Origin: a virus
Direction: 5' to 3' (one strand)
Length of the DNA stretch: 64,000 bases
IMG/VR virus record: IMGVR_UViG_3300045988_165521
Of the stretch, positions 1 through 64,000 are shown piece by piece. The notes beneath the pieces are model-generated. The model was given only the letters and a program-made list of their open reading frames with translations. It ran no database searches and was not told the origin of the DNA. Made by a program: the position numbers and the translations under genes. Each line of letters begins with the position of its first letter. The first letter of the stretch is position 1.

Positions 1-3000
1 CAGTAATAACAGTTTTTAAGTTGTTATAGAAATTTGCAGAAGGATATGCAATTAAAGACAATAAATAAACTGCCTGATCATAATCAGTAATCGCTTCAGT
101 ATCTCTAGCAAGCTTAGTAGGTCTTGCTGTAATTAAAGAAGTTGGTTCGAATAGTGAAGTGATGCGGTCAACTATTTCGCTATTAGATAATTTTTGATCA
201 TCTATAAGTTGATAGATTTTGGTTTCTAATCTAATAGAAGCCTCTTCAAATTCTTTAAAATTACTCTCCTTAATTTCTCCTGATGGAAAATCTGATTCAG
301 CAATTAATTGGTTAAGATCTAAGTTAAATAATGATGCAAACTTATCTTTGATTACAGAATTTTCATTATTAAGTAACAGATTTGTAAATCTCTGTCTCAT
401 ATTAATAGCAATATCTTTCTGTTCTCTAATTTTTTGTGCATTATTATTTTCTGCAATATTTATTAATGTATCAAGTCTAACCTTAATTGCTTTAAGATCT
501 GAAGACATATTAACGGCAGTTTCTGTATCAATTTCTGCAAGTAGATCTTTAGCTAATTTTTTCTTGAACTTATTAATTTGAGTGTTATATCCTCCATCTA
601 TAGAAGCAATAACAAGAGAATTTAAAATATCAATAAATCTACTGGTTTCTTTAAGTCTAGTTAAAGCATCCTTATTATTAATAATATAATCCTCTAATGA
701 ATCACTATTAAGGTAACTATTATACTCTTTTACAATCAAATTAACAATATTTTGACTAATTCCATTAGTAGATACTGCAAATTTTTCTAATAACTCATAT
801 GCAGGGGATACCTTAATTTCAGATTTAAGATCTGAAACCTCATTAATAAAATCAATAAACGTTCTTCCAGATATTCTCGGAATAATTCCAGCTAATATTT
901 CATCTGCACTTTGTCCTAAAAAGTCTGATAAATTTACTAATCCATCACTTTGTAAAAGATTTTGATATGCAGTTTTAATTTGATTTATATCTCCTTTTGA
1001 TACAATATCTTGAAAAACAGCTAAGTCATTTGCAATTCCAAGAGTCATTGACTCATAGCCTACACTATCACCTTCTGTTCTTTCTATATATGTATTAATA
1101 GCTTTTTCTCAATTAGCTGCAGCAATTCCTTCAGTAAATCCATTTACATAAAAATAACTCTTCATTAATGCAACAAGGTCTACATCTGTTACATCAGTAT
1201 ATAAAGAATTGGTCTTTAAATAGTTTAAGAAGTCAATATAGCTATTTGCATATGTATTTAAGGCAGCTTCATTATCAGCTATAAATGTATCTGGTCTAGC
1301 TAATACTTTTCTACCTTCTTCACTCAGCTCCTGAGTTAATCCAAATTCATGTCTTTTAACTAAGAAATCTTTGTAGTTTTCAGTTAATTGTAATTTAGTT
1401 TGAAGTTCAGATACTTCTTCATTAATTTCAACTCCTTCGGGAAGTTTAGAAATAGCTTCATCTATTTGTGCCTTTAGATTAGCAATTTCTTTATCAATGT
1501 TTTTAATACGATTAGTTTGAATAGTTTCACCTGGAGCATAAGCTTTACTTAAGTCTACAGTTTTTTGAGATACAGCTACTAAATCTTGTGCAATAGATTC
1601 ATTTAGACTATTAAATAAATCATACGCAGCAAACACCTTTGTTTTCTCAGTTGATTTAGAATATTTTTCATATTCTTCTTTAATCACAACTTTTTCATCA
1701 GATGTTAATTGATCGAAGTCTTTCTGATATCGAACTTTGGTAAAATTATGAATACCTAAGTCATCAACAAAAGCAGTTGCTAATGCAGGAGTAGCTGCAA
1801 ATCTTGCTTGCCCAAAATAATAGTCATTAAGTTCTCCAGAGACTATTTTATCACGTCTTGCTCTTAAATCATCAAGTTTTGCTTTTAGTCTTTGAAATTC
1901 TACATCATTTTGAGCTGCTGCTATTTTGTTATCCACATCTTTAGGAGTTTTAGGCTCAAGTTCAGTAGGAGTAATCTTAGATTCTAAAGCTACTTTAGTT
2001 TTTAAGATATCTTCTGTAAGATCATTCCAATCAGAGAATATTTTACTATAAACTCCAGTTTCAATTAACTGATTTTTAAGGCTTTCTCTCTGAATATTCT
2101 TAGCTAAATTTTCAGTTACATTAATACCAGTCATAGCTGATAATGCTTGTAACTCTTCATCAGAAATGTTTAGTCCCTCTTCATTGATAATACTATCAAT
2201 CCGATCGATGTAACTATTAATTTGGTTATAAATAACATCGTTCTGAGATTCTCCTTCTTTTGCAGATTCGTAATTAATTTTATATCCGTCAGGCTCTTTA
2301 ACAAGTTCAAACGATTTACCCGAAAGATTTCTACTTCCAAGAGCTCCTTTATCACGTAATCTTGTTAATTCTCTTTTTAAATCAGAGGTTTTGCCATTTC
2401 TTATTAAGTATATAATTTCTTGTAGAGAATCATTAGGTTTTTGAATTGCCTCATCATTTATAGAATTAATTCTTGAATCTCATTTTTCATGTAAACTAAA
2501 TACAGCACCACCAATAGCACCTCCCATAAATGCAGAAGTATAACGTGCAAACGCTTCTTCTGTACTTATACCAAAATCGAGTTGTTTATCCTTATCTACA
2601 ATACCCATTGTGTTTAACGCTGAGTAAAGTGCTTTTACCATGTCAGATGAAACTTCTTCTGCTACTTCTTCAACTCCTTCATTAACACTGTCATATAAAA
2701 TATTTCCAGGTTTCATTTTAGAGATTCGTTGCTGAATTTGGTTTTTAGTTTTCATAACCCAATTTGCAGCAGCTTTAGGAGAAACAATTCCTTTGTTGAT
2801 GTTTTCATTAGTTACTTTTTCAGCAACGTCTTTAATAACTCCTTTTACAGATGTACGGTCGAGATATGTATCTTTAAACCAAAAATCTTTAAAATAGTCA
2901 TTATTCATTAATGCAAACATTGCTCCCATTACAGATAACATTCCTAATCCTGCAACTCTATCAGATGCTCCAGCTTGCTTAAACGCATCATAGGCATCTG

Positions 3001-4174
3001 TAGAAGAGGTTCCTGCCATATAAGCTAAAGATAAAGCTCTACCTCATTTAATTGTATTTTCACTAACATTTTCTTTACCTACTATTCACTTCGGTATTTG
3101 CCCAATTACTCTTTGTTGAAATAATTGTCTTGAGCTATCTTCAACTAATTTTCCAATATTTTCTACGTTTCAGAAACTATTTCTTCCATAATCAGAAACA
3201 CTTCCATCAAATCTAGAAAACCAAGCTTGAATATCGGTAGCAGTTTGTGCTGATTTAGAGTTAGTTAAATCTCCCTTAGCAATACCTTCGATACTTCTAA
3301 ATAATACTGGGAATAATTTTCCTATTTCAACAGCAGCTGTCATACCACCATATACTTGTCCAACATATGGAATAAGCATTGGACCTACTTTAAATAAAAC
3401 CTTTGCTAAGGTACCTCCAACACTTTTATCTAATCCATCTGAATCAAAGAAATCATATTTATTCCATTTACTTCCATCAACAGTTAATGTATCAGAGATA
3501 TGTAAAATATCTTTCCCTGTAAGTGGTCTATTTCCTAATGTTTCATAAAATGGATCTCCCTCACTATTAAATTTTAAATCTCCTGCTTTATGTGAAACAG
3601 TTCTTCCATTTACTTCATGAGTTCCATCTTCATCTCATTGAGCTAATACAAGTGTAGGACGAGCTATAGCACCTAGTCCACCTCATTCATTAGGTGTTCA
3701 ATCCTCAAACTTACCAGTATCATAATTAAATATCTTATTTGTTTGTGCTACTTCACGTATCGACATAGTTGGATCAGAAGTTTCATATAGATTAACTATA
3801 CCTCGACTTCTTCTTTCAGGATTAGAGAATTTAACTAATCTTGAACTAACATCCAGTACATCGCCGCCGAGAGGTGCAAAATAATCTGCAGGATCATATG
3901 TAAATGAATCCATAGCAGTACTTGCTAAATTAGCTTCATCTGCACGATTATATAAGTCTAAAACGTCTTTATAATATGTATCGAATTTTTGATTATCAAA
4001 TTCTCCTCTATCGTTTTTAAACGCCTCTTGTATTTCTGGTATACCTTTATAATATTCTCTATCTTTAACATTAGAGTTATCAGGAGTTATTCCTAAATTA
4101 ACTAACTCTTGAACACTTTTGTCTGGCTGAAAAAATAATGCCGCCAGCCAATCATTTTTCTTCTGATCCATCAT
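1..4174 (-). CDS. giant virion-associated protein; C-terminus runs off the window start; >=1391 codons with TGA read as Trp
   Basis: ATG at 4174..4172, with an in-frame TAA just upstream (4178-4180). Track pieces 3698..4174, 3170..3379, 2480..3019 and 1109..2134 share one frame and are separated only by TGA. I checked every in-frame triplet from 4174 down to base 2 and found no TAA/TAG. Function is not recognisable. Confidence 0.7.
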
Positions 4175-4177
4175 ACT

Positions 4178-6073: not shown

Positions 6074-6075
6074 AT

Positions 6076-9000
6076 TTATGACATCATTTTTAGAAATAAC
6101 TTAATAATGTTATTATTTAGTTCTCCAACAGCCTTATTGATAGCTTTTTGCTGGTCTAGATATTGTTGCTCATCTGTTTTACGTAAATATCTACCGCCAG
6201 ATTTATAACTATAAGGTATAAATCTTTGAATAGGAATTTGCTCAGGATTAGTATAATTAATTAAATATGGTTTTGTATCTAATTTGTTTCCTCCAAGCCA
6301 AAATCTTCTTTGAGATTGCTGATAAGGATTAACTAAAGCCTCAATTCCATATTTACTTCTATTAGTAGCAATATCTCCAGAATATTTGTAATTTAAATAA
6401 TCATCGATTTTCCAACCACTATATTCTGGATTTTTACCCTCATTCTGTTGCCAATTATAGAACTCATTAATTTTACTATTTCTAAAATTAGTAAACCAAT
6501 TACTGAAATCTCCAGCAGCCTTTTGTTGTGCTAATTGAGCTTGTAAAGCTTGTTTTTCATTTAGATCCTTGGCATAGTCTCCTCTTAACTGATAAATAAG
6601 ATTCTTAACATTTTGAGTTTGTTGCGTAATCTTATTAGCATCAGCCATATCTAACTGAGCTAAACCTTGTGCTCAACGGTTTCTATTCTCATTAGTTATC
6701 TGAGTTCTAATATTAGCGTATTGTTGTTTTTGAGCAAGTAACTTATCATTATATTGATCTATCATTTGAGAAAATTTAGCATCTCTTTCTCCTTCTAATT
6801 GATCAACATTCATATCTCTCATAAGTCTTTCTGCTAATACTTTATTTGGATCACTAGTCGATGTCTTATATTGACGCATACTTTTAATGCGATCATTATA
6901 CATTCTATGCAACCCATTATCACTAAATCTAGAGTAAAACTCAGTAGGCATTTGTTGTTGAGAACCTATCATTCCTTTACGAATGGCATCTTTCATTTTT
7001 TGGGTAGTACGATTGATACCTATTGTAGAAGTAATAAAGTCTCCTATTCCCATTACCATATCAGGATTAATATTAAATCCTTTTCCTTTGCCATGTCCAA
7101 AAGCTGTATAATCAGAGTTATCTGTATTATATGAGGATCTGTTTAAATTAGACAAAGTTCTACTAGTAGAATCATTAAGTAATTCTTCTTTTGAATCTAA
7201 CCTTCCTTTAAACCCAAGATTATTATTAATTTGAGCCATTTTAGCATCATTTAAAATTGAATTATACTGATTCCTCACTACAGTATTTTGAGGTGATTGA
7301 ACAGCTTTATTTAAGCTTGTAGAAGCACGTTTAATAGGAGTTCCAACAACAGCAACTGGATCTACTTGTACATTAATCGGATTATTATTTTTATCTAGCA
7401 TATAATCAGCTACACTAGTTCAATTTTGATCTATTGGAGTACTAAATGTAGGATACTTAGTACCAGGTTGTGCTTTTATAATTTTACCGCCTTTTTTATA
7501 AAATACTGGATTATTCTCTGGTTTATAATACCAGAGATGTTGTGGTTGATTACTAAATATTCCTAAGTTAGGAGCTAAGTTAGAATAGATTGGCATTGTA
7601 ATAGGTCTCCGTTTTAGAGCTGTAACAGATGTAAACATTTCAGGTCCTCCGAAAAATCTTTGAACTTGAGAAGTTTGTTTATCTACATAGTTCTTAAAAT
7701 AAGGATTACTTCTATTAGTTTTTGCATCTCTAGTAGCAGCAGTCTTATTCCAATTTCACCAACCCATATCATCTGGATTTCTATAAGTACTAGGAAGTTC
7801 ATCATATTTAAATTGTCCTGTATTAAGTCCTTTACCTATTGAAGACTTCCAAGGTTTTCTCCAATTGAAATTTACATTAGAAGAACGTTTAATACCATAC
7901 TCAGAAAGTAAGTCAGTAACATTATCTGTTTTAGCTTTACCTAATTTTCCAATAATTATTTCCTCTAACTTTTCAGTTTTTTGATTTTTTGGAAGTGAAT
8001 TGACCGACTCAATCTCAGAACGACCTAATTTAATGGTAGGAAGATTTTTGTTATTAGTTGGTTTTAAAGTAACCATATCAGAGTTTCCTCCTTTTAATTT
8101 TGCACTTCCTGTGTTACGTTTTAAATTAGCAAAACCTCTAACTCCATTTAATACAGTACGAACATCTTTAATAGTTCATTTACCATCTTGAATATTTTCT
8201 CATGCAGTTGCTAATCCAGATGCAGCACTTCCAAAACTAACTCCTCTAGTTGCTCACTTAACAGCATTTGCGACAGCCTTAGATTTCTTTAAAGCTTTAG
8301 CTATTTTTGCTGCCTTAGCTCCTGAGCCAATCCCAGGAAGTAAAGTAGCTGCATCTAATCCTAGATTAAGTGCTAAATTACTAACATCGCCTCAATCTAA
8401 TCCATCTCTAGCAATATCTGCTCCAAAACCAGTTAATGAACCTACTGCACCAACTCCAGCTCCAGCAACATTGCCAAATCCTGGTACAAAAGTAGCACCT
8501 AAAGAAGCAGCATCTGCAACTAAAGCTGCAATTTCAGCTTTGTCAGCAGCAGTTAATTGTGTACCATCTCCAATAGTTTTTTCTTCTCCAGCAGCGCGAA
8601 GTTTTTTATCTGATTGTTGAATTGCTTGTTTACTAGCTTTTGCACTATTAACTCTATTTGCAGCAACTCCTCCAATTTGATATTTAATAACTCCTCCGTT
8701 TTTATTACTTGGAACTCTATAAGCTAAACCTAATTGTTCTAAGCCTTCAGGAGTAGTAATACTTCTTAGAGCAGAATTACCTCCTGTTCCTGAATATTGC
8801 TGTTGATACTTACCAAGCGTTTGAGTTTTAATTAAATCCTGAAATAATTGATATAAATCAGGATATTTTTGTCCAATAATTGGATTAAACTTAGCATGAC
8901 GAGTACTAATTGTAGCTATATATGGATTTCTAATAATATCACTAATATATCCCTTAACTTCTGGATCTCTTAAGATTTCAGGATGTTGCTCAATATATTG

Positions 9001-10686
9001 TCCTAAACGAGAATCAATATTCCAATAATAATTTCTCATACTATCTTCAGATCCAGGTAAACGACTATTTAATGTATAGTTATCATTTCCTGGGTTTTCG
9101 TCATGAAAATAGTATAATTGAGTTTGAGGATTATAATACAATGTAGCTCTTGTTTGAGGATTTGAAGCATCTCCAGTACTTGCTACTTCTTTATATCCTC
9201 CAGTATTTCCTATAGTATAGTAACTATTAAAAGCAGTTGTAGGATTATTTTCATAGTAAGAATTAACTATATTTGGATCTAATTGCTCTTGTAAAGTATT
9301 ATTATAATTAATTCTTTGTTTAGTTAAAGGATCAATATATACTCTTTCTGCTAAAGTTCTTAAAGGGTGTCCATAGGGATCAAACTGAGAAGAATCTTCA
9401 GGATTGTAATTAGGAAAATAATCATAAACTAAAGGATCACCTGCTTGTCTAACATAGTTACCAGTTAGATCTGCAGCATATCGATTTGGTTGAAAATACG
9501 GGGACCACATTGGATTACCTTCTGAATCAACAGAAGTACTAAACCATGGAGATCTAGAACGATTTTCATCCCAATATTGTTTAATAATTGAAGAATTACC
9601 AGCAGTTCTCTTATTATCTGCTACAAAATCTAAATACTTTTGAATTTTAGATAAACTATCTTGGTCATCACCCCTATATACTTTTCCATTAATAACAAAT
9701 AAACCAGAGTCATCTGGAATATAATCCGCATAACTTCCATATTTTCTTTTAAATTCATTATTAAGTCATGCATCTCCAGTTCCAATATATGATAATAATT
9801 CTGGATTATTTATAGTTACATTCCCATTTGAATCAACGTTAAATAGGTTATGGTACTTATCATAATCTCATCCTGCTTTACTTCAGTTTTCTTTTGTTTT
9901 CTTAAGTTCTTCTTGTGCAGGATCTACTTCTTTTTGAGCTTGAACAGGTTTACTTCCTCCTAAAAAGATACCAATATCATCTAATGCCATAGCATCTTCA
10001 TCCGTCCAATTTCCTTGTTCAAGCCTAGATATAATATCTTCTATGCCTTGCTCACCATATTTATTGTAAAAGTCTATATAAGCTTGCTTATCTAAATCAT
10101 TATAGCCTTTAAATTGATCATTATCCCCATAACCTGCAATATCTTTTAGACTACGAAGTCTTCTAGTTGCTTTTAGATTATTAGCTCCATTTATATAAAC
10201 TCTATTTCCATTTACTAATTCAAAATCTCCAGTATCTTTATTACGCTTATATTCCATAGTAATATCACTAGACCAATCTCTAATATTAATTGGATCTAAT
10301 GCTTCTACTGGCTTTTTATATTGAAAATCCTTTAAAGCATGAACTGCATTTCTTGCAGTATTTTCTTTTCCCCTTCATAGATTTCCAAAACTTCTGCCAA
10401 GTCTACTTCGACGTTTACCTAAACGTTCTGCTTGATTATTAGTAACATCAAACTGTACTCCTTCTAATCTATCGGCACTAGAATTATATGATAAATTAGC
10501 ACCTGATCTTAGAGCATCAGTTATTTTACTAAATTGATATGCAGTATCTTGATCTAATGTTTTTCCATAAGAAGACATCTGATTTAGAAAATCATCATCA
10601 ACCTGATATTGATTACCATCTATAGTAAAAGTGCCGTATTTTTGAGGAGTAGAACCACCTTGTTGATATTTAATTACTTGTGCCAT
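6076..10686 (-). CDS. giant tape-measure/ejection-like virion protein, 1536 aa
   Basis: Seven track ORFs (10375..10686, 9883..10257, 8392..9510, 7756..8076, 7420..7638, 6673..7401, 6076..6648) are in one frame. Every break is TGA and every gap was checked free of TAA/TAG. The real stop is TAA at 6076. The protein has a Gly/Ala-rich hydrophobic stretch (VPGFGNVAGAGVGAVGSLTGFG), coiled-coil-like Q-rich parts and several [YF][KQ]xGG motifs. Confidence 0.7.
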
Positions 10687-20800: not shown

Positions 20801-21068
20801 CTACTTTGTCGTCAATTGGATTATATGAAATAATATATAATACTCCTTGGTGTTCTTTCATTCCAACAGGAACAAAACCATTACTCAAAGCTCCATTTTT
20901 AAACCCATAATTACCCATATCGTTCTGTAAGGCAAATTCATTACCATTATAAGTAATTAAAGTGCCGTTTAAACAATCAGTCATTACAGTATTTGGAACC
21001 ATTAATGGTTCTATATCCTTTATCATTCCTCCATTAAACTGATTTATTTGATTTAATTTGTTCTTCAT
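17865..21068 (-). CDS. large tail structural protein, 1067 aa
   Basis: ATG at 21068. Pieces 19893..21068, 18873..19070 and 17865..18287 are in one frame. Gaps 19071-19892 and 18288-18872 contain no TAA/TAG. TAA at 17865-17867. Confidence 0.7.
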
Positions 21069-36783: not shown

Positions 36784-36802
36784 AATTTATATATTTTTAA
36801 GA

Positions 36803-42829: not shown

Positions 42830-42835
42830 AGTTTA

Positions 42836-49790: not shown

Positions 49791-50067
49791 ATTCTAATAC
49801 TATATATTGATTTCCTTCACCTGGAGTAGTCATTTCTCCAGAATAATATTTTGTTCTATCTAGTTGTCTGTTTCTAAGTTCTTTTTCAAGAAATTCGAAA
49901 AAACCTTCTTCATCACCTTCATAGACTAAAACTAGTGGAGCTTTTCATTGATTTAAATCTAAACTTAATTTCCATTGATTACCATCTATAGTTAATGTAA
50001 AGTCTCCAGTGTAATATGCACACATAGCCTTTTCAATTATTTCATATACTTTATCAACGAGTTCCAT
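49759..50067 (-). CDS. small hypothetical protein (102 aa) between TerL and portal
   Basis: ATG at 50067. Two in-frame TGA, no TAA/TAG. It overlaps the TerL end and the portal start. Confidence 0.4.
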
Positions 50068-52360
50068 TCTTTTGCGGTATTACTCCATATTCTTTATAGC
50101 CTTTTTCATTAGTGAACCATCCAATATTTTCTCATTCTTTTGCTAATTTATCTTGAGCGGCAGGTCGTATATTCATTAGCTCTTCATCTGCAATTTCCGC
50201 CATTTCCATGCTCGCGATAATATCAAACTTTCGTTTATTTTCTCAAGAATATTTTAACAATTGCTCAAGCATTTCATCAATATCAATTGAATAACAGTAA
50301 TCATTAACAAAATTATTAATTAATTCAAGACCATGCTTGATAATAGCTTCTGTAGCTGGTACACCAATCATTTGTGAGTTGCCTCTTTTCATATCTCCAA
50401 GAGTTGAAGCAGGACGTTTCATAAATAGACTATCTTTCTTTTTTTCTTTAAAATATGTAACAATACTAATCTTAGTATGTTCAAGTAGTGCTTTACAATT
50501 ATATCATACTAATAACTTCATTGCTACATCATACGCTTCTCGAATATCTCGAGGACGATCTTTATAGATCGCAACATATTTCGCTTCTTGTAATCCATAT
50601 ATACGTTTCTTAATAACTATACAGAAATCAGATACATCTGTTGAGGTAGAAGAATCTCCAGAACCTTGGTCAATAGAGTCTATTCCTGCAACATATAAAT
50701 TTTTTAATACAAGACCATCTTCGTCACGAAGTGGCCTTTCATATATAGCAATTTTACTATTTGGATTATTTATAACTTTTACTTTTGTTAAATCAGGAGT
50801 ATCTCCAGAACGATCTCATAATAATGATACATACTCTGGTTTTAATCCTGCTTTAAATATCCTAATTTGGGTTAATCTATCTGCAATTGCAATTGAATCA
50901 AAGATATTTTCACCCTGCTTATATAATGCTTCATTTGGAATAAAACAGTGCTCTGCACAATAATCAAGTAGGTCTTTGCCACTTAATTTTTTACGTTCTT
51001 CCTCATAAAACTTTTTAAATTCTTCAGATTGTGTAACGCCTCTTGTATCTAAGAATTCTTCTCGTAAACTAAACTTATGAGCTGGAATAAAGAAAGCTGT
51101 TAATTGTGGTTTTCTATCTTCTGTATCATAGTTTTTATATGGAAGTACATTATACCCTTCTGGTTTTGCAAAAATGTTTGATAAACCTTCAAGTGCCATA
51201 TCATCACCACCTGTACCTAAAGCAATACGTGTTCCAAAATGATAACCACCAAGCTCAACAAGAGCATTACCTTGAATCCAACTTTTAGTTAAATATTTAT
51301 TAGATCCTGCTTCTTCATAGATTAATCTGTCGACACGATCACCACGAATTTTATCAGATGTATCAGCAATTACTGAATCAATTTCTGACATTCAACCATA
51401 TTCAACTCCATCAGGAGTAACTTGAGATGCACGCTTAGTATCTGCATTATTAACTTTTTGTCGTAGGTGGCGCATACCTCCATTAGTATTCATGTCTAAT
51501 CAGTTTAACTGTTTTCAACATTTAGTTTTTAAAGGAGTAAGTTTACCTTCTGCAGCACAAGTTAATAAAGAACGATAACCTCTATTAGTTATATAAGGCC
51601 TTACTGCTAAACAAGCAACAATCTCAGATAATCCAATACCACGAGCTTTTAATATAGCTACATCTTTGTGTAGTCTTTCAGCCATTTCAACATAATGAAA
51701 GAATTCATATTGTTTAGCTAGAAATGTAGGAAACTTTTCATTACGACCAGCACCACCTCTAGCTCCTTCAGAAATAACTTCCATTCTATAGAAATTTAAA
51801 AAGAAATAATGATCTCCTGTAATTCTATATTTACCAACTGTATAACCTTCAGTACAACGTTTATATTGTTCTCTTCAGAAATCATTATAAGGCTTTGAAT
51901 CTGCAGGATATTCAGTATATGATCCAGTTCTATCATAAATTTGAGCTAGTTCATTAAAAGGAGTAGGATCAAAATCTAAACCTTGAGTTTCATTAATTGG
52001 GCGGTATCCAGTTAATTCATATGATAACTCTGGATCAAAGTAAAGTACGTCTTCGGTGACCGCCACATCTCACAAACCATCTCTCTTTTTATAAAAATCA
52101 GTTGCAGTATACTCAAATTGTTCTGTAGTATCTTCTTTCTGATCTCCAAGCATTTCTTGTAATTGCTTTTTTAATTCTTCTTCAAATTTATCTGAAAAAG
52201 ATTGAGGAGTTGGTTCAGGACCTTTTATTGATTCTCTAAGCTCTTTATATTTCTCTTTAGTTGTTTTCTTTCTTTTGACTTCTGATTCTTCTTTATTTTT
52301 TATCTGTTCAAGCATTTTTTTACGTGCTTGAGACATTGAAGATTTAATTGTCTTTACCAT
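50051..52360 (-). CDS. terL: terminase large subunit, 769 aa
   Basis: Track ORFs 52070..52360, 51875..52066, 51515..51784 and 50816..51391 are all in one frame. Every gap was checked triplet by triplet and contains only TGA. TAA at 50051. TerL-like motifs are YFFLNFYRM, KARGIGLSE (Walker-A region) and GTGGDD. Confidence 0.8.
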
Positions 52361-56208: not shown

Positions 56209-58137
56209 TTAAAATACTATAGGTTTATCTAAATCTAATTCAGATTTAATCTTAACGTCTCTTTTATAATGTTTAAGCATTCTTTCAACATCTGATTTTA
56301 AATAATCACATTCATGTTCTGAAATATGATTGTTGTGATCAATATGAATTAATACTAATTTTTTAATATTAAAGTTTGGATTAATTTTTTGTAGTAAGTA
56401 AGCATATAATGATAACTGCAACGAATAATGATAAAAATTACAATCCATAATATTATCCATTGGGAATTTCATCATAGTTCTACTTTTAGTAAATTTATTA
56501 TAAAATGATTCTTTTTCTAATTTCTTATTAGTATTATGTGTAACTATCATTGAATCACCGAATAAAAACGTGTGTGATGGACTGTCAACTTCTAAGCATT
56601 GCGTTGCTACTGTATCAACTCTTTCTACAGATATAATATTTCTAAATGTATTCTTATTTTTAGATGGGAAGTCGATATCTTGATTTCTTACTAAAAAGGG
56701 ATTTAATCCATCAGTTGAAAAACATACATCTCATCCTTTAAATATCTTTCCATTACATTTTTTATCTACTTCAAAAACAGTAGCTTTTATGCCTAATGTA
56801 CTTACTAACCTTAATAAATCTTCAGCTTGTCATTTCTGAGTAGTTCCCATTACAAATCTTTTTCTAGATTCATGATAGTAACCATCAGTATCCATTAACC
56901 CTCTAAGCAAATCAAGTCTTTGTTGATAAGAGGCTCGCATATATAAATCAGGTATAAACTTATTATTTAGTATTCCTAGATCGTTAAGTTTTTTTCTAAT
57001 ATTATATATAGTTCGCATTTCCGCAGATTTTCCGTCAGAAAGATCTCCTCCAAAAGTATATCCTCTATTTTCTATTTCTTCCCATACTTTAGAGTTTATA
57101 TTAGTGATAATTCCACATGACTTAGAGCCATCTCCTAGTCAACATCCCAGTACATAAGGATCTATAGGAAGTTCTATTTCTGGAAGATTTAGAGGATTTG
57201 CGTTCATTATTTTTGGGATATTGTACGAGGTTCTTGGTTTATCAATTAACCACTTTGCAATATCTTCTGTGGTCATAACTACTTCCCTAAATGTTTTATC
57301 TATATTCCTAAAAGAAATAAGTCATCTATGTTCATGGTCTGCCACAATCGACTCTCCGTTATCAAAAGTTATTTTAAAACATGGATTGTAATGGATATCT
57401 GATTTATGTAACACTTTAGTTATATTTCCTTCTTTATCAAATATCTCTTCTCCCTCCTTTATATCCTTAATAGTTGTCCATCCGTTTTTAGTTGGAATTT
57501 TTGTATCTAGAGGGAGTCCTTTATAATCGTATATATAAATATCATTACCGTCTTTAATAAGTAAGTCAAGTTGTCCTGCAATTCTTAATAAACCATCTTC
57601 TGATTTATAACTAATCATAAATTCAGGATAAACTCCTTTTTCTAAATCTAATTGATAATATCCTTTCTTGCAAGTAAATTTTCCTCCAAGACCAAATTTC
57701 TTAAGATCTTGTTCTTCAGATTGATAATACATATTCTCAAATTGAGCATGTATTTTTGTTCCTCTTTCACAAGATTTATTTCTTTCTACTTCATACGATT
57801 GAAGTATTTCTGCCCGTTTATTTTCAAACTCTTCTTCGTTGATATTTAACTTTTCAAGTAAAGTTGGATTTCAACGTTTTGTATTTAGTAATGTAGTTTT
57901 AACAACTTTAAAAATTTCTGGTTCTACTAAAGCTTCGCAAGCTTTATATGCAGATCAGAATGCTGAATCAAACTCATTAACATATTTATGTATCAATGTT
58001 GTTACAGATACATAAGGCTTATTATCATATTTATCTAAGTACAGATGTTTTGCATCTGAATAAATAACATCTTCTGTTTCTTTGTCTACTTGATATCCAT
58101 TAACATATTTTTCCTTTACATTACTTAATTTTGGCAT
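56209..58137 (-). CDS. PD-(D/E)XK (RecB/Cas4-like) nuclease precursor containing an intein; extein about 313 aa
   Basis: One frame from 58137 to TAA at 56209. All gaps were checked and contain only TGA. Extein motifs are ERGTKIHAQFE, GQLDLLIKDGNDIYIYDYK|TNKK (the DYKT box is restored after intein removal) and YHYSLQLSLYAYLL (QxxxY). Confidence 0.75.
56533..57519 (-). mobile_element. intein (329 aa) with LAGLIDADG homing-endonuclease domain; class-3-type signature
   Basis: It starts GLPLDTKIPTKNGW (block A with Gly1 instead of Cys/Ser). Block B is GESIVADHEHRW (His at B10, Trp at B12). LAGLIDADG motifs are LGC[W]LGDGS and LLRGLMDTDGY. Block F is TQCLEVDSPSHTF (Cys where class 1 inteins have Asp). 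Block G is MIVTHN followed by Thr+1. Confidence 0.8.
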
Positions 58138-58864: not shown

Positions 58865-58896
58865 GCAAATATATAATAATTTTTTTGTATATCCAA
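58865..58896 (-). promoter_or_regulatory. Bacteroidota-type promoter (TTTG-N20-TAtaTTTG), minus-strand arm of a divergent pair
   Basis: The minus strand reads TTTGgatatacaaaaaaattattaTAtaTTTG, upstream of the ATG at 58822. Confidence 0.6.
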
Positions 58897-58911
58897 ATAA
58901 ATCAGTAAAAT

Positions 58912-58943
58912 GTTTGTATATAATTAAATAAATAACTATATTT
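58912..58943 (+). promoter_or_regulatory. Bacteroidota-type promoter (TTTG-N20-TAtaTTTG), plus-strand arm
   Basis: TTTGtatataattaaataaataacTAtaTTTG, about 55 nt upstream of the ATG at 58998. Confidence 0.6.
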
Positions 58944-58997
58944 GCAGAAATAATGTGCTAACATAATGTAAATAAAATTTTAAAAATATTATAATTT

Positions 58998-59276
58998 ATG
59001 AAGTATAACGATGAAATACTAAACAAAATTGCTGAGTCTTATAGTAAAAAGATTGATGAAAATACTAATCTAGATAATGTAATACTTGGTTATTTAGAAA
59101 TGATGAAGAATGGTAGTAAAATCCATATTAAACCAGAAAATAGAGGTAAATTTAATGCTACTAAAAAGAAGACAGGTAAAACTACTGAAGAATTAACACA
59201 TAGTAAAAATCCAGTAACCAGAAAACGTGCTATTTTTGCTCAGAATGCTGCTAAGTGAAATAAGGGTAAAAAATAA
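58998..59276 (+). CDS. small basic protein, 92 aa
   Basis: Track ORF 58998..59258 ends at TGA and continues NKGKK to TAA at 59274. The C-terminal part is IHIKPENRGKFNATKKKTGKTTEELTHSKNPVTRKRAIFAQNAAK[W]. Confidence 0.6.
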
Positions 59277-59280
59277 AGGT

Positions 59281-60381
59281 ATGATAAAACAATTTATCTT
59301 TCAAAATATAGCTGGGGGGGGGGTTACTACTATAAGTTATGTAATAGGAGCAACTCTTTTTAGTAAAGGAGTATCAGAATTAGTATACGTTGATGAAACT
59401 AATGCGCATCACCTTTTAAAGAGATGAAATAATGAGTTAATAACGAATTTTACAATTGAAGTTCCAAAAAATATATTAACTTCTAGTTGAGGTCTTCAAT
59501 TAAAGTTGATAAATCCTGATTATGATGATGATTATAAGAGTTTTATTCAATCTTCTGTATATATGGATGGAACAGACATTACAAATTATGCTTATATTGA
59601 ATCAAGCACTGCACCTGATTCACATATTAATTTTAATGTTCTAACGGATGTTGGAGTTATTAGAAAAAATCTAACTATTACAATTAATCAACTTCCTATC
59701 AATGTATTCTATTTAACTTATAATTCTATTAATAAGCCAACTAGTACATTTGTTAATTTCAACCTTAATTCTAGTCTAGGTGTTACCGAATCAACAACCT
59801 GTAAACTAACTTATGGAACTGAAGGTGCAACTACTATAAAAACTGTAACATTACCAGCTGGAGAAAATATAGTAAGAGAACAAACTGGAACATTTTTTGC
59901 TACAATTCCATTAAATATGTATATTACTCCAAAAGAGTCTTCTAATATATTAAATAGACAGAATCTTTATTCTGGATTTGTTTGTATGAATTTTGATGAC
60001 GCTTACTTATATAATTCTACACCAGATGAACTTTTAAGTTGAAAAGAGGTTAAAACTAATTTCTGAAATAATAATATAAGTAAAACTAAAGTTACATTAA
60101 CTTTAACAACTACTGATGGAGATATTGTAAGTGCTCTTACGATGTTATCTATAGATAATAAAACTTTAATGTTCTTCTTTGATCCTAGAAGTAATATATA
60201 TAACCAAGCAGTTGAATCTATGACTTTTAAAGACGAATATTTAGGGTATAATCTTAGATATGAATTCCCAAGTAGCACTTCTGCCTGAACGACCCAGATA
60301 CAATTAAATGGACAATTTATAGGCCTAACAAATATTGGAACCTTAGAACCTGTTCCATTTAGGGGAAAATATAAAATATAA
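59281..60381 (+). CDS. beta-rich N/T/Y-rich protein, 366 aa, with G10 tract at codons 12-15
   Basis: ATG at 59281. One frame through TGA at 59425, 59488, 60040, 60064 and 60286. All triplets were checked. TAA at 60379. It is a distant paralog of the minus-strand gene at 63122..64000. Confidence 0.7.
59314..59323 (+). repeat. G10 homopolymer inside a coding region
   Basis: GCT GGG GGG GGG GTT. G9 or G11 would give a stop within 4 or 17 codons respectively. Confidence 0.9.
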
Positions 60382-60384
60382 TAA

Positions 60385-60410
60385 AAAAGGAACCCAATTG
60401 GGTTCCTTTT
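60385..60410. terminator. bidirectional intrinsic terminator between convergent genes
   Basis: aaaaggaaccc aatt gggttcctttt. Confidence 0.8.
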
Positions 60411-60413
60411 GTT

Positions 60414-60602
60414 TTAAGTTCTCATTTCTACACTAAATACTTCGAAATTAATCTCTACGTTTTCTCATTTTGGAAGACTGACTGCAGTTACAAATCCTCA
60501 TGAAGAAGACATAACTAGATGACAATCAACATCATTGTGTGTTTCTATTTCGTTTGTATCTATATTTCTTATTGTAACATTAACTCTTCCTATATTATCC
60601 AT
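60414..60602 (-). CDS. hypothetical small protein, 62 aa
   Basis: ATG at 60602. Two in-frame TGA. TAA at 60414, just 3' of the terminator stem. Confidence 0.4.
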
Positions 60603-60889
60603 TCCAAGTACTTCTATACCATCCTTCTATACCACATATTGCAATAAATATAAAATAGGTCAGTTCTGGGTTTATTAATATAGGATCTTCTTCCTCTTTC
60701 GCTAAATAATAGTTTGCATTTTGTCCTCAAGATTGATATACTTGTGGTGGATAAGATACAGGTAAGAAATCAGAATACATTCCTTCATTTAAGGATAGTT
60801 CTTCAGAAATAGCTCCTCCATCTTGTGTTATTAAGTATAATTTTGCTTCTTATGTATTTGGGAATGCAGTTAAAGTTCCTTCGTATCCA

Positions 60890-61609
60890 CTATTTCTTTG
60901 TTACAATAAATGTAGCACCAACAGAATATACTGTAGCATCATTAAGAGTAGCTATATCTTGTGCAAATAGTTTAGTATTATTTCCAAGATCTTCTGATTC
61001 TGTAAATATCATAAAGAACCCTTCATTTGAATAATTCATAAGGTTCTGCATACATGTATAAGAGCTTGCATTACTAATTACAAAATGACATGTAGAAGAA
61101 CCTGCTCTTATCATTAGGTCAGACTCACCTATTCATTGATTCCAATCTGCAGGCATTATAACACATTCTTCTGAATATTTATTTCCCAGCATAAAAGTAA
61201 GTGATGCAAATGCTGCTAAAGAAGAATTCTTTGGATTTCCACTAAGGCCATTAGTGCCATTAAATAAATCTACAGGAGTATCTAATTCTTGTATAACAGA
61301 GTCTCCTGTAAAAAGAAAATTTCTAAATTCAGAATCAGGAAATTCTGTTATATTAAAAGCAATCGGATATCCAAAAATGTCTCAACTTCTTTGAATCTCT
61401 TCTATAACATTAACATTATAAGGTGCTGCAACTGCAGTTAATGTATTATAATTTCCTGAAGAATCTAAATCTGTAGGTTTTGCTAATTGTAATATGGCAT
61501 GGAACTCATCATTACCCTCATGATACGTGCAGGTAGCTACTAACACTATACTTTCAGGAAATGGTGCTAATTTAATCTTGTTTATATTTTGTGATATAAA
61601 TGTTTTCAT
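60890..61609 (-). CDS. hypothetical protein, 239 aa
   Basis: Track ORFs 61382..61609 and 60890..61114 are in frame and joined by TGA (61382, 61133). The gap was checked. It ends with a genuine TAG at 60890. Confidence 0.6.
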
Positions 61610-61724
61610 TTTCTTTTATTTTTGTTTCTTGTTCAAATTCAAGAATTTTACTATAAAACTCAAAAAAGAATTCTTCGAGTGTTATCTTGGAATTCCTTTT
61701 TGCATTTTCTAATAAATCATTCAT
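61572..61724 (-). CDS. very small ORF (50 aa) in the lysis cassette
   Basis: ATG at 61724, TAA at 61572. It overlaps the next gene by 38 nt. Confidence 0.3.
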   Translation of the reverse strand: MNDLLENAKRNSKITLEEFFFEFYSKILEFEQETKIKENENIYITKYKQD

Positions 61725-61729
61725 AGTTA

Positions 61730-62125
61730 TTACCGTTTAGGAACTCCTCCAAACTTATCAGCTTGATTTTCTGGCCAAACTGAATAATAACTTTTAGCTC
61801 TAAGTTTAGCACTAATTCTTCTAAGACCTACTCAGCAAATACTGCATAAACCAGGGCCAGGTAAATAAAGCCATCCTCATCTAATACTCTGTCTTGTGTG
61901 GCCTCATTCATGATCTTTAATGCTGTTTCTATTATATTTTCTAGCAGATTCACCCATTAGAATATATAATCCTAATGAAATACCTCCAGGAAAGTCGCCA
62001 GCATAAATTGGAATTTGTTTGTATGTTTCTTTATACTCTACATTATAGAGTTTGGTTAAGATGAGACCTAGGAGACACTGTGGGAACTCCCAGATCCATC
62101 TTAATAGTTTAATATATCATTTCAT
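61730..62125 (-). CDS. multi-pass membrane protein with HE[W]GH motif, 131 aa (lysis-cassette partner, holin-like position)
   Basis: ATG at 62125. There are 4 in-frame TGA, all triplets were checked, and TAA is at 61730. Hydrophobic segments are LLRWIWEFPQCLLGLIL, GGISLGLYILMG and GWLYLPGPGLCSIC. The KDHE[TGA]GHTRQS motif has its middle residue encoded by TGA. Confidence 0.55.
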
Positions 62126-62128
62126 ATG

Positions 62129-62560
62129 TTATGCTTTAAAAAAGTATAGTTTTTTCCCATGTGTATTTGGAGAAATATCAATGTGTAATCAAGAGATTTC
62201 ACCTTTATTGTCTCATTTTTCTACTCGTATAGGATATCTAAGTTTATCTTGATTATTTTCGAGAATTTCTCTCATCTCTTTAGCAGTTAATTTAGTTGAT
62301 ATTAAATCAAACGCTTGACCTTTATAATGATAGCCTGTAGGAGTACCAACTCCACATCCAGGTTCTCTATAACCACTATAATTTCTAGATCCTCCTGCAT
62401 ATCAATTATTGCATATAAGAGGAACATTTAGAATTTCTCTAACATTCTCTAAAGCTTCAAGAGCTTTTGGATCTAGAAATTTTATAGCATCATCACCATA
62501 TTGATTATATATTTTAGATGATACTAATTCTTTTACTTGAAAATATTTATTTGCTTGCAT
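62129..62560 (-). CDS. endolysin, peptidase M15 (VanY/L-Ala-D-Glu peptidase-like), 143 aa
   Basis: ..GGSRNYSGYREPGCGVGTPTGYHYKGQAFDL.. and ..S[W]LHIDISP.. match the M15 metal-ligand pattern (H..G.A.D and W.H.D). There are three in-frame TGA. TAA at 62129. An alternative upstream ATG lies at 62599. Confidence 0.7.
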
Positions 62561-62561
62561 A

Positions 62562-63122
62562 TTAATTAGTACATGGATTATATAAGCATGCTCATGCATG
62601 TCCTATAAAAATCTTATTTCTAATATAATTATCTTCAATTTTATCTAACATTGTATAAAGCTCTGAAATTTTATATAATCAATGCTCTCCTTTATTTGAA
62701 GATTTTATAATTAAAGGAGTAAAGTTAAGTTCTTTAGATATAGAGGCCACTATTTTGTTTGCATTCTCAGAATATTCATCAGCATCATATAAACCATAAA
62801 AATCTTCATTTATAATAATATCTTTTAGCTGAGGTTTAATTCCAAAAACTTTAAACCGCTCTCACTCTATCTGAGATAAAAATCCAGAGGACAATCTTTT
62901 TGAAACAGTATCAATATATACTCTAGCGTAGTATTCTTCTGCAACTTTGATTATATCTGGCATAGTTTCTTTTAATGATTCAAATGAACCAAAAAATAAA
63001 TCTTTACAGATTCTTTTTTGAGTAGAATGACCATCTTTCAATCTTGAAAGAATTATTACTCTTACATAATAATCTTTTTCAAAGTGAAGAATAGGTTTTA
63101 ATATCTCTAAATTATTTATCAT
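62562..63122 (-). CDS. hypothetical protein, 186 aa
   Basis: ATG at 63122 (TAATG overlap). Track ORF 62862..63122 continues through TGA (62862, 62679, 62592) to TAA at 62562. Confidence 0.6.
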
Positions 63123-64000
63123 TATTGAAGGTATGTGTTAATATCATATATGAGATAAGATCCTACCAGACTTTCGTCTATATAATTTGAATCTCCATTT
63201 ACTGCAGTTTGTCCAGTTATAATAGGTATTCTTATCTGTTCAACTGCACTAAGTATAGCATCTATTTCCCCTGCAAAATAATAAGAAAGTACTGCATAAT
63301 TTACTCCCATATACATATTAGAAGCCATTCCATCTTTATCTACACATCTTAAATCAAATTGAGGTCTTGTCATACTAGAAACTAAATCTGCACGTTTAGC
63401 TCAATTAGTTTGTAGTTTACTTATATATGGATTGCTATTTGCATTAAATTCTAAAGTCATAGGATTGTTTACTACTAATATTCCTGCACTTGAATTATAT
63501 AAATCTGCTTTAAATATTCCTTGATAACTTCCAAACTGACTAATATCCATATAAAGATTAGTGTTTACTGCAATATATTCTCCTGATGCAGAAAACTCTG
63601 TGGGAGCTATATAATCGTATTTTGGATTAGGGTTACATATTTCAATAGTTGCAGAATTAAACGTCATACGTTCTAATGAAGATATTGGAAACGATAAGTA
63701 TACAGGTATAGCAAAATTCTTATGATCGAAACCAATACCTGTATCTTCTATTGTTCCCACAGATACAGTATAGTTTACAGGTATTGGAATCTCAACTCTC
63801 AAATAAGTAAATGTTAAACTTACAGTTATTTTAAAATATTGTTCTTGATCATCATAATCTAAAGGATAATCAAATGAAACCCCAAATAAGTAATTAGCCG
63901 TGCGTAAGGGTTCAATACCTGAATCTGTAATTTTTGGAACTGTATAATTTGGGCCATAAAAATAAAAATAAGACTTATTTATTTTTTTACTCCCCCCCCC
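63122..64000 (-). CDS. beta-rich protein, partial (N-terminus beyond the window end), paralog of 59281..60381
   Basis: Track ORFs 63401..63802 and 63122..63373 are in frame and joined by TGA at 63401. The frame stays open up to base 64000, where the codons read GGG GGG GGG followed by SKKINKSYFYFYG. Confidence 0.65.
63992..64000 (-). repeat. homopolymer of 9 or more C on the plus strand (poly-G on the coding strand), truncated by the window end
   Basis: The last nine bases of the window are C. Confidence 0.85.

What the first reader, a model, noticed from the sequence alone, without database searches (positions are those of the whole stretch)
1..64000. Window-wide TGA->Trp reassignment in a phage with Bacteroidota-type promoters
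Almost every coding-strand ORF-track fragment ends in TGA, and the next fragment continues in the same frame. I walked the in-frame triplets across the gaps and found no TAA/TAG in the following: 6076..10686 (7 fragments -> 1536 codons), 13345..17865 (1506), 17865..21068 (1067), 42836..46309 (1157), 40460..42829, TerL 50051..52360, both portal exons, the nuclease and many small genes. Genuine ends are TAA/TAG, often in TAATG stop-start overlaps. TGA falls where Trp is expected: the paralogous fibres read SGYATQN[TGA]VTSQGY and SGYATQS[TGA]VTGQGY, the fibre motif reads DGK[TGA]EKIGD, the collagen fibres read IEDGR[TGA] and KGQT[TGA]QDIG, and the LAGLIDADG motif reads LGC[TGA]LGDGS. Both strands are affected. 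The promoters match the Bacteroidota consensus, and those hosts use the standard code. The phage would therefore need its own tRNA-Trp(UCA) or another suppression mechanism, and none is present in this window. Stop-codon recoding is known in some gut phages, so the phenomenon is not new. It is nevertheless decisive for annotating this sequence.
Basis: partly seen in the sequence, partly recalled or inferred. Interest (0 to 1): 0.75.

Follow-up and report, generated by a model that had tools for sequence, protein, structure and literature searches.

The report
TGA-as-tryptophan recoding in crAss-like phage
This window is the late-gene region of an abundant human-gut crAss-like phage (Zeta group) that writes tryptophan as TGA; this was already published for the same phage species, and the "missing" suppressor tRNA sits elsewhere in the genome, hidden from tRNA finders by an intron.

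Summary
With TGA read as sense, ORFs of at least 150 aa cover 91% of the window, against 54% under the standard code.

TGA means Trp. In a syntenic standard-code relative the TGA positions align mostly to W, then Y and F. Across 74 related TerL genes, TGA and TGG interchange in the same columns.

The phage is a ~174-kb Zeta-group (zeta_11) crAss-like phage. Yutin et al. 2021 list the same species as "TGA|w", so the recoding itself is already known.

New here: I walked about 154 of 174 kb of the same species. A ~45-kb early region is TGA-poor and holds about 25 tRNAs and a tmRNA. At its end sits a tRNA with anticodon UCA. In 17 of 19 contigs a likely group I intron of 341-360 nt splits the anticodon, which explains why no suppressor was reported. 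The tRNA is tRNA-Trp-like and has an extra arm whose loop copies the Trp anticodon loop, CUCCAAA.

Bacteroidota-type promoter motifs are few but concentrated in intergenic DNA.

The finding as given is ordinary. The hidden suppressor is the interesting by-product.

The parts
2..4174 (-). N-terminal 1391 codons of a 2628-aa late protein (Pfam AAA_19/AAA_30 in the full-length product). It has 8 in-frame TGA and 6 TGG.
6076..10686 (-). 1536-aa virion-module protein with 11 TGA and 15 TGG. It breaks into 7+ fragments under table 11.
13345..17865 (-). crAss muzzle protein (Pfam PF25731 crAss_MUZ), 1506 aa, 12 TGA and 7 TGG.
17865..21068 (-). 1067-aa structural protein, 9 TGA and 8 TGG.
23881..24570 (-). 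crAss ring protein 1 (PF24228), 2 TGA and 2 TGG.
28413..29822 (-). Major capsid protein (PF23898 Crass_capsid, phrog_11589). It is TGA-free, with 7 TGG (P=0.0025 against the window's 58% TGA share).
34909..38695 (-). Two paralogous fibre genes (34909-36783 and 36803-38695, Pfam Phage_fiber_rpt). They carry TGA at the W of SGYATQ(S/N)WVT(G/S)QGY and of DGKWEKIGD.
40460..46309 (-). Two collagen-repeat fibre genes (40460-42829 and 42836-46309), with 12 and 13 TGA.
47246..49790 (-). Portal gene in two exons (48615-49790 and 47246-48286), separated by a group I intron (about 48287-48614; the Rfam match spans 48336-48624). The portal is continuous in MT835470.1.
50051..52360 (-). Large terminase (phrog_6681), 769 aa, 10 TGA and 2 TGG. 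TGA and TGG interchange in these columns across 74 related loci.
56209..58137 (-). PD-(D/E)XK-type exonuclease interrupted by a ~320-aa LAGLIDADG intein (residues ~207-526). It has 6 TGA, one of them in LGC[TGA]LGDGS.
58866..58944 (.). Divergent pair of Bacteroidota-type promoter-like sites (TTTG-N20-TAnnTTTG), at 58866-58897 (-) and 58913-58944 (+). Three more lie at 31379-31410, 30965-30996 and 11160-11191 (all -).
58998..60381 (+). The only two plus-strand genes, with 1 and 5 in-frame TGA. The second starts at ATG 59281 (MIKQFIFQNIAGGG...).
59281..64000 (.). Invertible ~4.7-kb segment. It is bounded by an inverted repeat that encodes the N-terminus MIKQFI(F/S)QNI(A/T)GGG and ends in a poly-G tract (G10 at 59314-59323; C9 at 63992-64000, running off the window).

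Best explanation
What it is. The window is most of the late block (virion, packaging, lysis and the start of the transcription module) of a ~174-kb Zeta-group (zeta_11) crAss-like phage of the human gut. In this block 58% of tryptophan codons are written TGA.

How the genome is organised. It has two codes in time:
- A ~45-kb early region starts at a divergence point about 4-5 kb beyond the right end of the window. It uses TGG and almost no TGA, and its genes end in TAA or TAG, so a standard-code host can translate it.
- This early region carries about 25 tRNA genes and a tmRNA.
- At its end, behind a Bacteroidota-type -33/-7 promoter, sits a tRNA-Trp-derived tRNA with anticodon UCA.
- From that gene onward, the replication genes and then the late genes use TGA freely.

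How the switch works. Once the suppressor is made (and, in most strains, once a group I-like intron that splits its anticodon between U34 and C35 has spliced out), it is presumably charged with Trp by the host TrpRS. UGA is then read as Trp, which unlocks the middle and late genes.

Shown: the recoding, its Trp meaning, the early/late asymmetry, and the presence and conserved fold of the tRNA(UCA) gene.

Inferred: splicing, charging with Trp, competition with RF2, and the timing role.
For: ORF statistics and shuffles.

Trp meaning: alignment to the standard-code syntenic relative MT835470.1. At 12 TerL Trp columns in 74 loci the codons are TGA 536, TGG 185 and Tyr 51.

crAss-like identity: TerL tblastn; PHROG and Pfam crAss_MUZ, CrAss_Ring_1 and Crass_capsid; a giant RNAP with DYDID downstream.

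Same species as OKSC01000019, which is listed as zeta_11, 'TGA|w', 23 tRNAs, no Sup.

Code asymmetry, TGA:TGG. 15:75 upstream of the tRNA(UCA), 35:36 downstream, 152:112 in the window, 40:17 further into the late block.

The tRNA(UCA):
- An intron-less 94-nt allele at L256:2731-2824.
- 17 contigs split at the anticodon by 341-360 nt; after in-silico splicing ARAGORN calls UCA in all of them.
- A second 91-nt UCA type at the same locus in L257, so 19 of 19 contigs spanning the locus have a UCA tRNA.
- Cloverleaf 99.3% paired, with 8 pairs changed on both sides.
- RF00028 is the only Rfam family matched over its full length, and the R and S core motifs are present.
- TTTG-N20-TACCTTTG lies 24 nt upstream.

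No other stop-anticodon tRNA appeared among 463 ARAGORN calls.
Against: The window itself does not contain the tRNA. The link rests on contigs of the same species at 95-99% identity, not on the window's own contig.

The intron matches to RF00028 are far below the gathering score (15.5 and 18.5 bits against 50). Splicing has not been shown.

About 20 kb of the genome (roughly 64-83.5 kb of the forward block) was not scanned and could hold other factors.

Nine early ORFs of at least 100 aa contain 1-4 TGAs. Several look like homing-endonuclease or spurious ORFs.

A long extra arm together with G73 is also what SerRS recognises, so charging with Trp is an inference from codon evolution and is not demonstrated.

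No RF1 or TrpRS gene was seen that would help the switch.
Confidence: 0.85

Rival explanations
1. UGA is read by the phage's own tRNA-Trp(CCA), through C34·A wobble as in the E. coli Hirsh suppressor, and not by a UCA tRNA.
For: Most strains carry an identical phage tRNA-Trp(CCA) in the early tRNA array (L206:13656-13728). Its D-stem pair 11:24 is U:A, as in the G24A Hirsh suppressor (the Hirsh comparison is from my own knowledge).
Against: Two recoded strains lack this tRNA at the site (L204 and L216). All 19 contigs spanning the other locus have a UCA tRNA. Genes with up to 22 TGAs need efficient decoding, which wobble suppression rarely gives.
Confidence: 0.05
2. The host itself uses code 4 (a Mollicutes-like bacterium), so the phage merely mirrors its host and needs no switch.
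For: Host predictions in PMC12386605 Table 1 for the neighbouring opal-recoded Zeta phages name Holdemanella or Faecalibacillus. These are Erysipelotrichales, relatives of Mollicutes. No host was identified here.
Against: The first ~45 kb of the forward block avoids TGA (15 TGA: 75 TGG) and ends its genes in TAA or TAG. The phage brings its own UCA tRNA. Bacteroidota-type -33/-7 motifs precede late operons and the suppressor tRNA. crAss-like phages infect Bacteroidota (PMC7886860). The named genera use the standard code (my own knowledge).
Confidence: 0.04
3. TGA is reassigned to another amino acid: Gly as in code 25, Sec, or Ser via the tRNA's long extra arm.
For: ARAGORN labels the tRNA 'SeC' because of UCA plus a long arm. 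SerRS recognises long variable arms and G73 (my own knowledge).
Against: TGA columns align to W, then Y and F, in a standard-code relative, with only 1 Ser and 1 Gly of 54. TGA exchanges with TGG, not with Gly or Ser codons, in TerL. (TGA+TGG)/aa equals a normal Trp content. The tRNA has the tRNA-Trp hallmarks: A1-U72 in allele A, G73, and the loop CU-UCA-AA.
Confidence: 0.03
4. TGA is a real stop, and the fragments are separate small genes, pseudogenes or assembly errors.
For: Standard-code pipelines do call dozens of small ORFs here, for example the JGI calls on L260.
Against: Fragments continue in frame into full-length TerL, portal, muzzle and fibre proteins that match relatives end to end. 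The same TGAs are conserved in many independent assemblies. Shuffled sequence gives 0.8% ORF coverage.
Confidence: 0.01

Closest known systems
Zeta-group crAss-like phages, subgroup zeta_11 (Yutin et al. 2021, PMC7886860, Supplementary Data 1; e.g. OKSC01000019, 175,041 bp, 'TGA|w')
   Same: Same species-level cluster: L235 is OKSC01000019, 96% identical to the walked genome. Same genome size, same TGA->Trp call, recoding confined to part of the genome, introns and inteins, and the same tRNA list including tRNA-Trp.
   Different: The published table lists no suppressor tRNA for this subgroup. Here a UCA tRNA is found at a fixed locus, mostly split by an intron. The tmRNA and the invertible segment are not mentioned in that paper.
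Lera phage / 'Echekvirus' and the other opal-recoded Zeta phages (PMC12386605)
   Same: Code 4 in structural, lysis, TerL and RNAP genes. A forward block holds the tRNAs and replication genes, and a reverse block holds the virion genes. That paper states that a suppressor cannot be detected in some clearly recoded genomes (4 of 5 in the 173-177 kb opal clade).
   Different: Lera has an ordinary, detectable tRNA-Sup(TCA) plus an unused Sup(CTA). Lera's sequence is not in the collection searched, so the tRNAs could not be compared.
TGA-recoded gut phages Agate, Jade and Sapphire, and the early-standard / late-recoded model (Borges et al., bioRxiv 10.1101/2021.08.26.457843)
   Same: Standard-code-compatible early genes, recoded structural and lysis genes, and a suppressor tRNA as the switch. 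Only 35% of code-4 genomes had a detectable TGA suppressor, and the authors suspected non-canonical tRNAs.
   Different: These are different phage lineages, mostly infecting Firmicutes. Jade carries TrpRS and RF1, and none was seen here. In this phage the replication genes are recoded too.
Group I introns in bacterial tRNA anticodon loops (e.g. cyanobacterial tRNA-Leu(UAA)); my own knowledge
   Same: Insertion after position 34 of the anticodon, a U before the 5' splice site, a terminal G, a size of a few hundred nt, and presence/absence polymorphism.
   Different: Here the host gene is a stop-codon suppressor in a phage. The Rfam score is below the family threshold.
Mycoplasma/Spiroplasma genetic code 4
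   Same: UGA is read as Trp by a tRNA-Trp(UCA) alongside a tRNA-Trp(CCA).
   Different: There the code is a fixed property of the cell. Here it is imposed during infection, and only part of the genome uses it.

Membership tests
crAss-like phages (Crassvirales sensu lato), Zeta group | TerL and virion-module proteins homologous to crAss-like phages | tested here: met
   TerL tblastn hits are crAss-like phages at 27-30% identity. Other matches: phrog_6681 and phrog_6547, and Pfam crAss_MUZ, CrAss_Ring_1 and Crass_capsid.
crAss-like phages (Crassvirales sensu lato), Zeta group | Genome of 145-192 kb, with a transcription block encoding a giant RNAP that carries a DxDxD motif | tested here: met
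   Same-species contigs are 169-176 kb. A 2941-aa protein with DYDID lies downstream of the window.
crAss-like phages (Crassvirales sensu lato), Zeta group | Identity with a genome classified as Zeta by Yutin et al. | tested here: met
   Locus L235 comes from OKSC01000019.1 and is 95.6% identical to the walked genome. That cMAG is listed as zeta_11.
Phage with genetic code 4 (TGA->Trp) | In-frame TGA in conserved essential genes, with table 4 restoring full-length proteins | tested here: met
Phage with genetic code 4 (TGA->Trp) | TGA positions correspond to Trp in standard-code homologues | tested here: met
Phage with genetic code 4 (TGA->Trp) | Phage-encoded tRNA with anticodon UCA | tested here: met
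   Absent from the window. Present in 19 of 19 same-species contigs spanning the locus.
Phage with genetic code 4 (TGA->Trp) | Peptides with Trp at TGA codons | not testable with these tools
   This needs virion or metaproteomics.
Group I intron (portal gene) | Match to Rfam RF00028 at or above the gathering score, interrupting a gene that is continuous in a relative | tested here: met
   56.9 bits against 50. The portal is continuous in MT835470.1.
Group I intron (tRNA(UCA) gene, outside the window) | Match to RF00028 at or above the gathering score | tested here: not met
   15.5 and 18.5 bits against 50. The model is matched over its full length and the R and S motifs are present. No match for the 605-nt version in L219.
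Group I intron (tRNA(UCA) gene, outside the window) | Precise insertion polymorphism that restores an intact gene, with a U before the 5' splice site and a G at the intron's 3' end | tested here: met
   The intron-less L256 allele equals exon 1 plus exon 2 of the split alleles.
Bacteroidota sigma-ABfr promoters | -33 TTTG and -7 TAnnTTTG at the proper spacing upstream of genes, more often than chance | tested here: inconclusive
   Window-wide, 9 were found against 4.4 +/- 2.1 expected (6 of 100 shuffles reached 9). Five of the 9 lie in the 4% of the window that is intergenic, correctly oriented. One more precedes the tRNA(UCA). These are consensus matches only.

The most novel reading that the evidence does not exclude
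The code switch of this very abundant gut phage depends on an undescribed kind of opal suppressor. It is a five-armed, tRNA-Trp-derived tRNA(UCA) whose anticodon is split between U34 and C35 by a self-splicing group I intron. Its extra arm displays a copy of the Trp anticodon loop, CUCCAAA. This loop is conserved between alleles whose stems differ by compensatory changes, so it may act as a surrogate identity element for the host TrpRS. Intron-split suppressors of this kind could account for part of the roughly 65% of code-4 phage genomes in which no suppressor tRNA has been found. They would also make the timing of recoding depend on RNA splicing.
Probability: 0.5. Interest if true: 0.7.

Novelty: already known. 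Interest (0 to 1): 0.4.

Why it matters
For annotation, it is decisive. Under the standard code this region breaks into hundreds of meaningless fragments, as in the JGI calls on L260. Under table 4 it gives a complete crAss-like virion module. That is practical but not new, because the same species is tabulated as TGA->W in Yutin et al. 2021.

The added value lies outside the window. Both major surveys note that many recoded phages lack a detectable suppressor tRNA and leave the reason open. In this clade the suppressor is there, but an intron in the anticodon and an unusual fifth arm hide it from ARAGORN-type finders.

This yields a concrete, testable recipe: search for split tRNA halves next to conserved promoters. 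It also suggests that splicing may gate the switch from host code to phage code.

Tried and rejected
- Megablast of 20 kb of the window against GenBank phages found nothing.
- No tRNA was found within ±10 kb of TerL in 60 related loci, nor in the standard-code relative MT835470.1.
- The look-up of encoding contigs refuses table-4 translations, so only TGA-free window proteins could be looked up.
- I walked the genome with eight IMG/VR scans and one metagenome scan. The first five steps found no stop-anticodon tRNA. For a while this made the phage tRNA-Trp(CCA) the lead candidate. I dropped it as main decoder once two recoded strains were seen to lack it and the UCA tRNA turned up.
- Relaxed ARAGORN thresholds and its intron mode gave only spurious stop-anticodon calls.
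- Extra Rfam tRNA hits missed by ARAGORN turned out to be Gly(UCC)-like.
- The look-up of P0145, meant to walk back from the convergent end, landed on a contig end and added nothing.
- A genome-contig scan for a CCA version of the suppressor's 5' half, meant as a host hint, returned scattered CPR and other tRNA-Trp genes and was uninformative.
- Lera phage PV725988 is not in the collection.
- No GenBank phage in the collection has a full-length match to the 94-nt tRNA.
- The extra arm could not be scored with the count of structure pairs, because MAFFT puts the two alleles' stems one column out of register. I compared it by eye.
- The whole-window Rfam search at gathering threshold missed the portal intron that a local search scores at 56.9 bits.

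Full report
OBSERVATION

The window has 31% G+C. ORFs of at least 150 aa cover 54% of it under the standard code, 91% when TGA is read as sense, 57% for TAG as sense and 69% for TAA as sense. Ten shuffled versions give 0.8% against 85% by the same measure.

A simple table-4 gene call gives 53 genes covering 96% of the window, 51 of them on the minus strand. Stops are 48 TAA and 4 TAG. There are 152 in-frame TGA and 112 TGG. TGA plus TGG make up 1.29% of codons, a normal tryptophan content, whereas TGG alone is 0.55%.

All six quoted motifs have TGA at the W. The two plus-strand genes (58998-59276 and 59245-60381) also contain TGAs.

Two details need correction:
- TAATG overlaps occur at only 5 of 50 junctions.
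- TGA use is uneven. Fifteen genes have none, and the major capsid gene has 0 TGA against 7 TGG (P=0.0025). Yutin et al. noted the same for a Zeta capsid gene.

MEANING OF TGA

MT835470.1 is a 117-kb unannotated human-gut phage record. It is collinear with the window from the 2628-aa protein to the nuclease (TerL 47% identical). It gains nothing from table 4, so it uses the standard code.

Against it, the window's TGA codons align to W 22, Y 13 and F 7 out of 54. The window's TGG codons align to W 20, F 5 and Y 5 out of 40.

In 74 IMG/VR loci with TerL 52-100% identical, the 12 Trp columns of the window's TerL read TGA 536 times, TGG 185 times and Tyr codons 51 times. TGA and TGG swap in both directions, even among near-identical strains. 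This excludes Gly, Ser and Sec, and it excludes termination.

IDENTITY

TerL, portal and capsid match crAss-like families. Pfam finds crAss_MUZ, CrAss_Ring_1 and Crass_capsid.

Identical proteins occur on contigs of 169-176 kb and in thousands of sample blocks. One same-species locus comes from OKSC01000019.1. Yutin et al. 2021 list that genome as zeta_11, 175,041 bp, 'TGA|w', with 23 tRNAs including Trp and no suppressor. The recoding of this very species is therefore published.

Table 1 of PMC12386605 shows an opal-recoded Zeta clade of 173-177 kb in which 4 of 5 genomes have no detectable suppressor. Borges et al. found TGA suppressors in only 35% of code-4 phages.

REST OF THE GENOME

I walked along IMGVR_UViG_3300014793_000001 (174,492 bp) and same-species contigs.

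To the left of the window, the late block continues for 27.5 kb. It holds the rest of the 2628-aa protein, a 2941-aa RNAP-like protein with DYDID and 22 TGAs, and a 1478-aa protein with 14 TGAs. It then meets genes on the opposite strand.

To the right, after about 4-5 kb more of late-type genes, transcription diverges. The forward block that starts there uses TGG: the TGA:TGG ratio is 15:75 in 35 ORFs of at least 100 aa, and 26 of these ORFs have no TGA. Its genes end in TAA or TAG. It contains about 25 tRNA genes, first scattered and then clustered, and a tmRNA (Rfam 98-100 bits).

At default settings ARAGORN made 463 tRNA calls in the loci held at that point, and none had a stop anticodon.

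THE SUPPRESSOR

Downstream of a MoxR-AAA/VWA gene pair, about 45 kb into the forward block, contig L256 has a 94-nt tRNA with the anticodon loop CUUCAAA.

The same gene is present in 17 other same-species contigs, but there it is split after the first anticodon base by 341-360 nt. Joining the halves in silico restores a tRNA(UCA) in every case. L257 carries a different 91-nt tRNA(UCA) at the same spot. This second type also occurs in other Zeta lineages. So 19 of 19 contigs spanning the locus have a UCA tRNA.

The insert behaves like a group I intron:
- It follows a U and ends in G.
- It is absent precisely in one allele.
- It contains the R (GUAGAGACUAAAUG) and S (GAUAUAGUCC) core sequences.
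- RF00028 is the only family matched over its full length.

However, the scores are only 15.5 and 18.5 bits, below the gathering score of 50. By comparison, the portal intron in the window scores 56.9 bits.

The tRNA resembles tRNA-Trp: A1-U72 in one allele, discriminator G, and an anticodon arm like that of tRNA-Trp. The comparison with bacterial tRNA-Trp identity elements is from my own knowledge.

Across seven distinct alleles, the four standard arms are 99.3% paired, with 8 pairs changed on both sides.

Between the anticodon arm and the T arm lies a fifth arm:
- Allele A: stem GGAG/CUCC, loop CCUCCAAAA.
- Allele B: stem GUAGGG/CCCUAC, loop CUCCAAA.

The stems differ by compensatory changes, but the loop keeps the Trp anticodon-loop sequence. 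Whether this helps TrpRS recognition is speculation.

A TTTG-N20-TACCTTTG motif lies 24 nt upstream of the tRNA.

Downstream of the tRNA, TGA use resumes. The RNase H gene has 3 TGA and 0 TGG, the helicase has 6 and 0, and the ratio over the next 19 kb is 35:36.

No release-factor or TrpRS gene appears in the Pfam lists for the window, for 21 kb of the forward block, or for ten larger early proteins. About 20 kb of the genome was not examined.

MECHANISM

Shown:
- A TGA-poor early region that a standard-code host can translate.
- A UCA tRNA gene at its end.
- TGA-rich middle and late genes.

Inferred:
- Transcription of the tRNA by the host RNA polymerase.
- Splicing of the intron.
- Charging with Trp by the host TrpRS.
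- Competition with RF2.
- A role for the phage tmRNA in rescuing ribosomes that read through host UGA stops.

I considered the phage tRNA-Trp(CCA) as a Hirsh-type decoder. Two recoded strains lack it.

PROMOTERS

The full -33/-7 Bacteroidota consensus occurs 9 times in the window, against 4.4 expected, which is not significant. Five of the nine lie in the 2.6 kb of intergenic DNA and face genes. About 0.2 would be expected there by scaling the window-wide expectation to the intergenic fraction; this is my estimate, not a tool result. Two of the five form a divergent pair at 58866-58944.

This fits a Bacteroidota host, but it is a consensus match only. Published host predictions for neighbouring phages name Erysipelotrichales.

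VERDICT

The phenomenon is already published for this species. The by-product is an intron-split, five-armed suppressor tRNA that explains the 'missing suppressor'. The papers I could search do not describe it, and it deserves follow-up.

Noticed in passing
window 59281-64000 (and L081, L082, L084, L086, L088, L011, L017, L261-L265): A ~4.7-kb segment lies in the opposite orientation in all 7 IMG/VR contigs checked and in 1 of 5 table-4-called ENA/Logan contigs; the other 4 match the window. The junctions fall in a ~43-bp inverted repeat that encodes the shared N-terminus MIKQFI(F/S)QNI(A/T)GGG of two unrelated proteins (~367 aa and ~302 aa). Inversion therefore swaps their bodies between two heads and flips the small genes between them. 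No recombinase was identified.
   Followed up: partly
window 59314-59323 and 63992-64000; L081/L082/L088 ~9120; L264/L265 gene calls: The inverted repeats end in poly-G tracts whose length varies between assemblies, roughly 6-13 G. In some contigs the downstream ORF is called from a later ATG (226 or 291 aa instead of 302 or 367). This could be slipped-strand phase variation or homopolymer assembly error.
   Followed up: no
L179:15695-16075, L204:5231-5611, L216:1599-1979 (same species, early block): The phage encodes a tmRNA (Rfam RF00023, 98-100 bits) with tag peptide ANNIFSRIINKVETALFGDIEGVALMAA. More distant Zeta relatives have other tags. It is not mentioned in either Zeta-phage paper. 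It may rescue ribosomes that read through host UGA stops once the suppressor is active.
   Followed up: partly
L256:2731-2824; L250:11983-12436; L242:12006-12470; L257:2543-2633; L222:12637-12727: Both types of Zeta-phage tRNA(UCA) are 91-94 nt and have a fifth arm. In type I the arm's loop is the Trp anticodon loop CUCCAAA. In type II the 12-nt loop contains UCCA. ARAGORN labels them tRNA-SeC or misses them.
   Followed up: partly
L206:13656-13728 (present) against L204 and L216 (absent): A phage tRNA-Trp(CCA)/tRNA-Ala(UGC) pair is present in most strains but is replaced or deleted in two. The tRNA array also differs between strains in Pro, Val, His and Gly.
   Followed up: partly
L164:16765-16836 and L206:14254-14326 (L204:14951-15024): There are odd tRNA-like genes. 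One has a 6-nt anticodon loop, which ARAGORN calls 'tRNA-???(tg)'. Another, 73-74 nt long, reads as Ser(GGA) with G33 in most strains but as Phe(GAA) in others.
   Followed up: no
window 28413-29822: The major capsid gene avoids TGA completely (7 TGG, 0 TGA) while its neighbours use it. This is consistent with selection against suppression-dependent codons in the most highly expressed gene.
   Followed up: partly
window 5995-6073, 10600-10686, 11000-11091, 13290-13352 (N-termini of four genes): Four consecutive large late proteins start with a similar motif: MKIKRYQNGG, MAQVIKYQQGG, MKVKKYQEGG and MHKRIKKMEIGG. A protein of MT835470.1 starts MKVIPKLQQGN. It may be a shared targeting or processing signal.
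   Followed up: no
L260 (JGI 3300007806): The same region called with the standard code gives 52 small ORFs with no Pfam hit. This is a concrete example of the annotation damage caused by ignoring the recoding.
   Followed up: no
L256:19141-21224: The ribonucleotide reductase gene of the same phage is split by an insert carrying a GIY-YIG endonuclease gene. L257 has extra GIY-YIG and LAGLIDADG inserts near the DnaB and AAA_24 genes.
   Followed up: no
window 48150-48750: The Rfam search of the whole window at gathering threshold returned nothing. A local search of the same stretch scored the portal intron above gathering (56.9 bits), so the speed filters can hide real introns in AT-rich phage DNA.
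   Followed up: yes
L242:11970-12005 and the same site in L250, L256, L257: A 9-bp inverted repeat (ACTACCTTT...AAAGGTAGT) overlaps the -7 box just upstream of the suppressor tRNA in all alleles. It could be the terminator of the upstream VWA gene or an operator.
   Followed up: no
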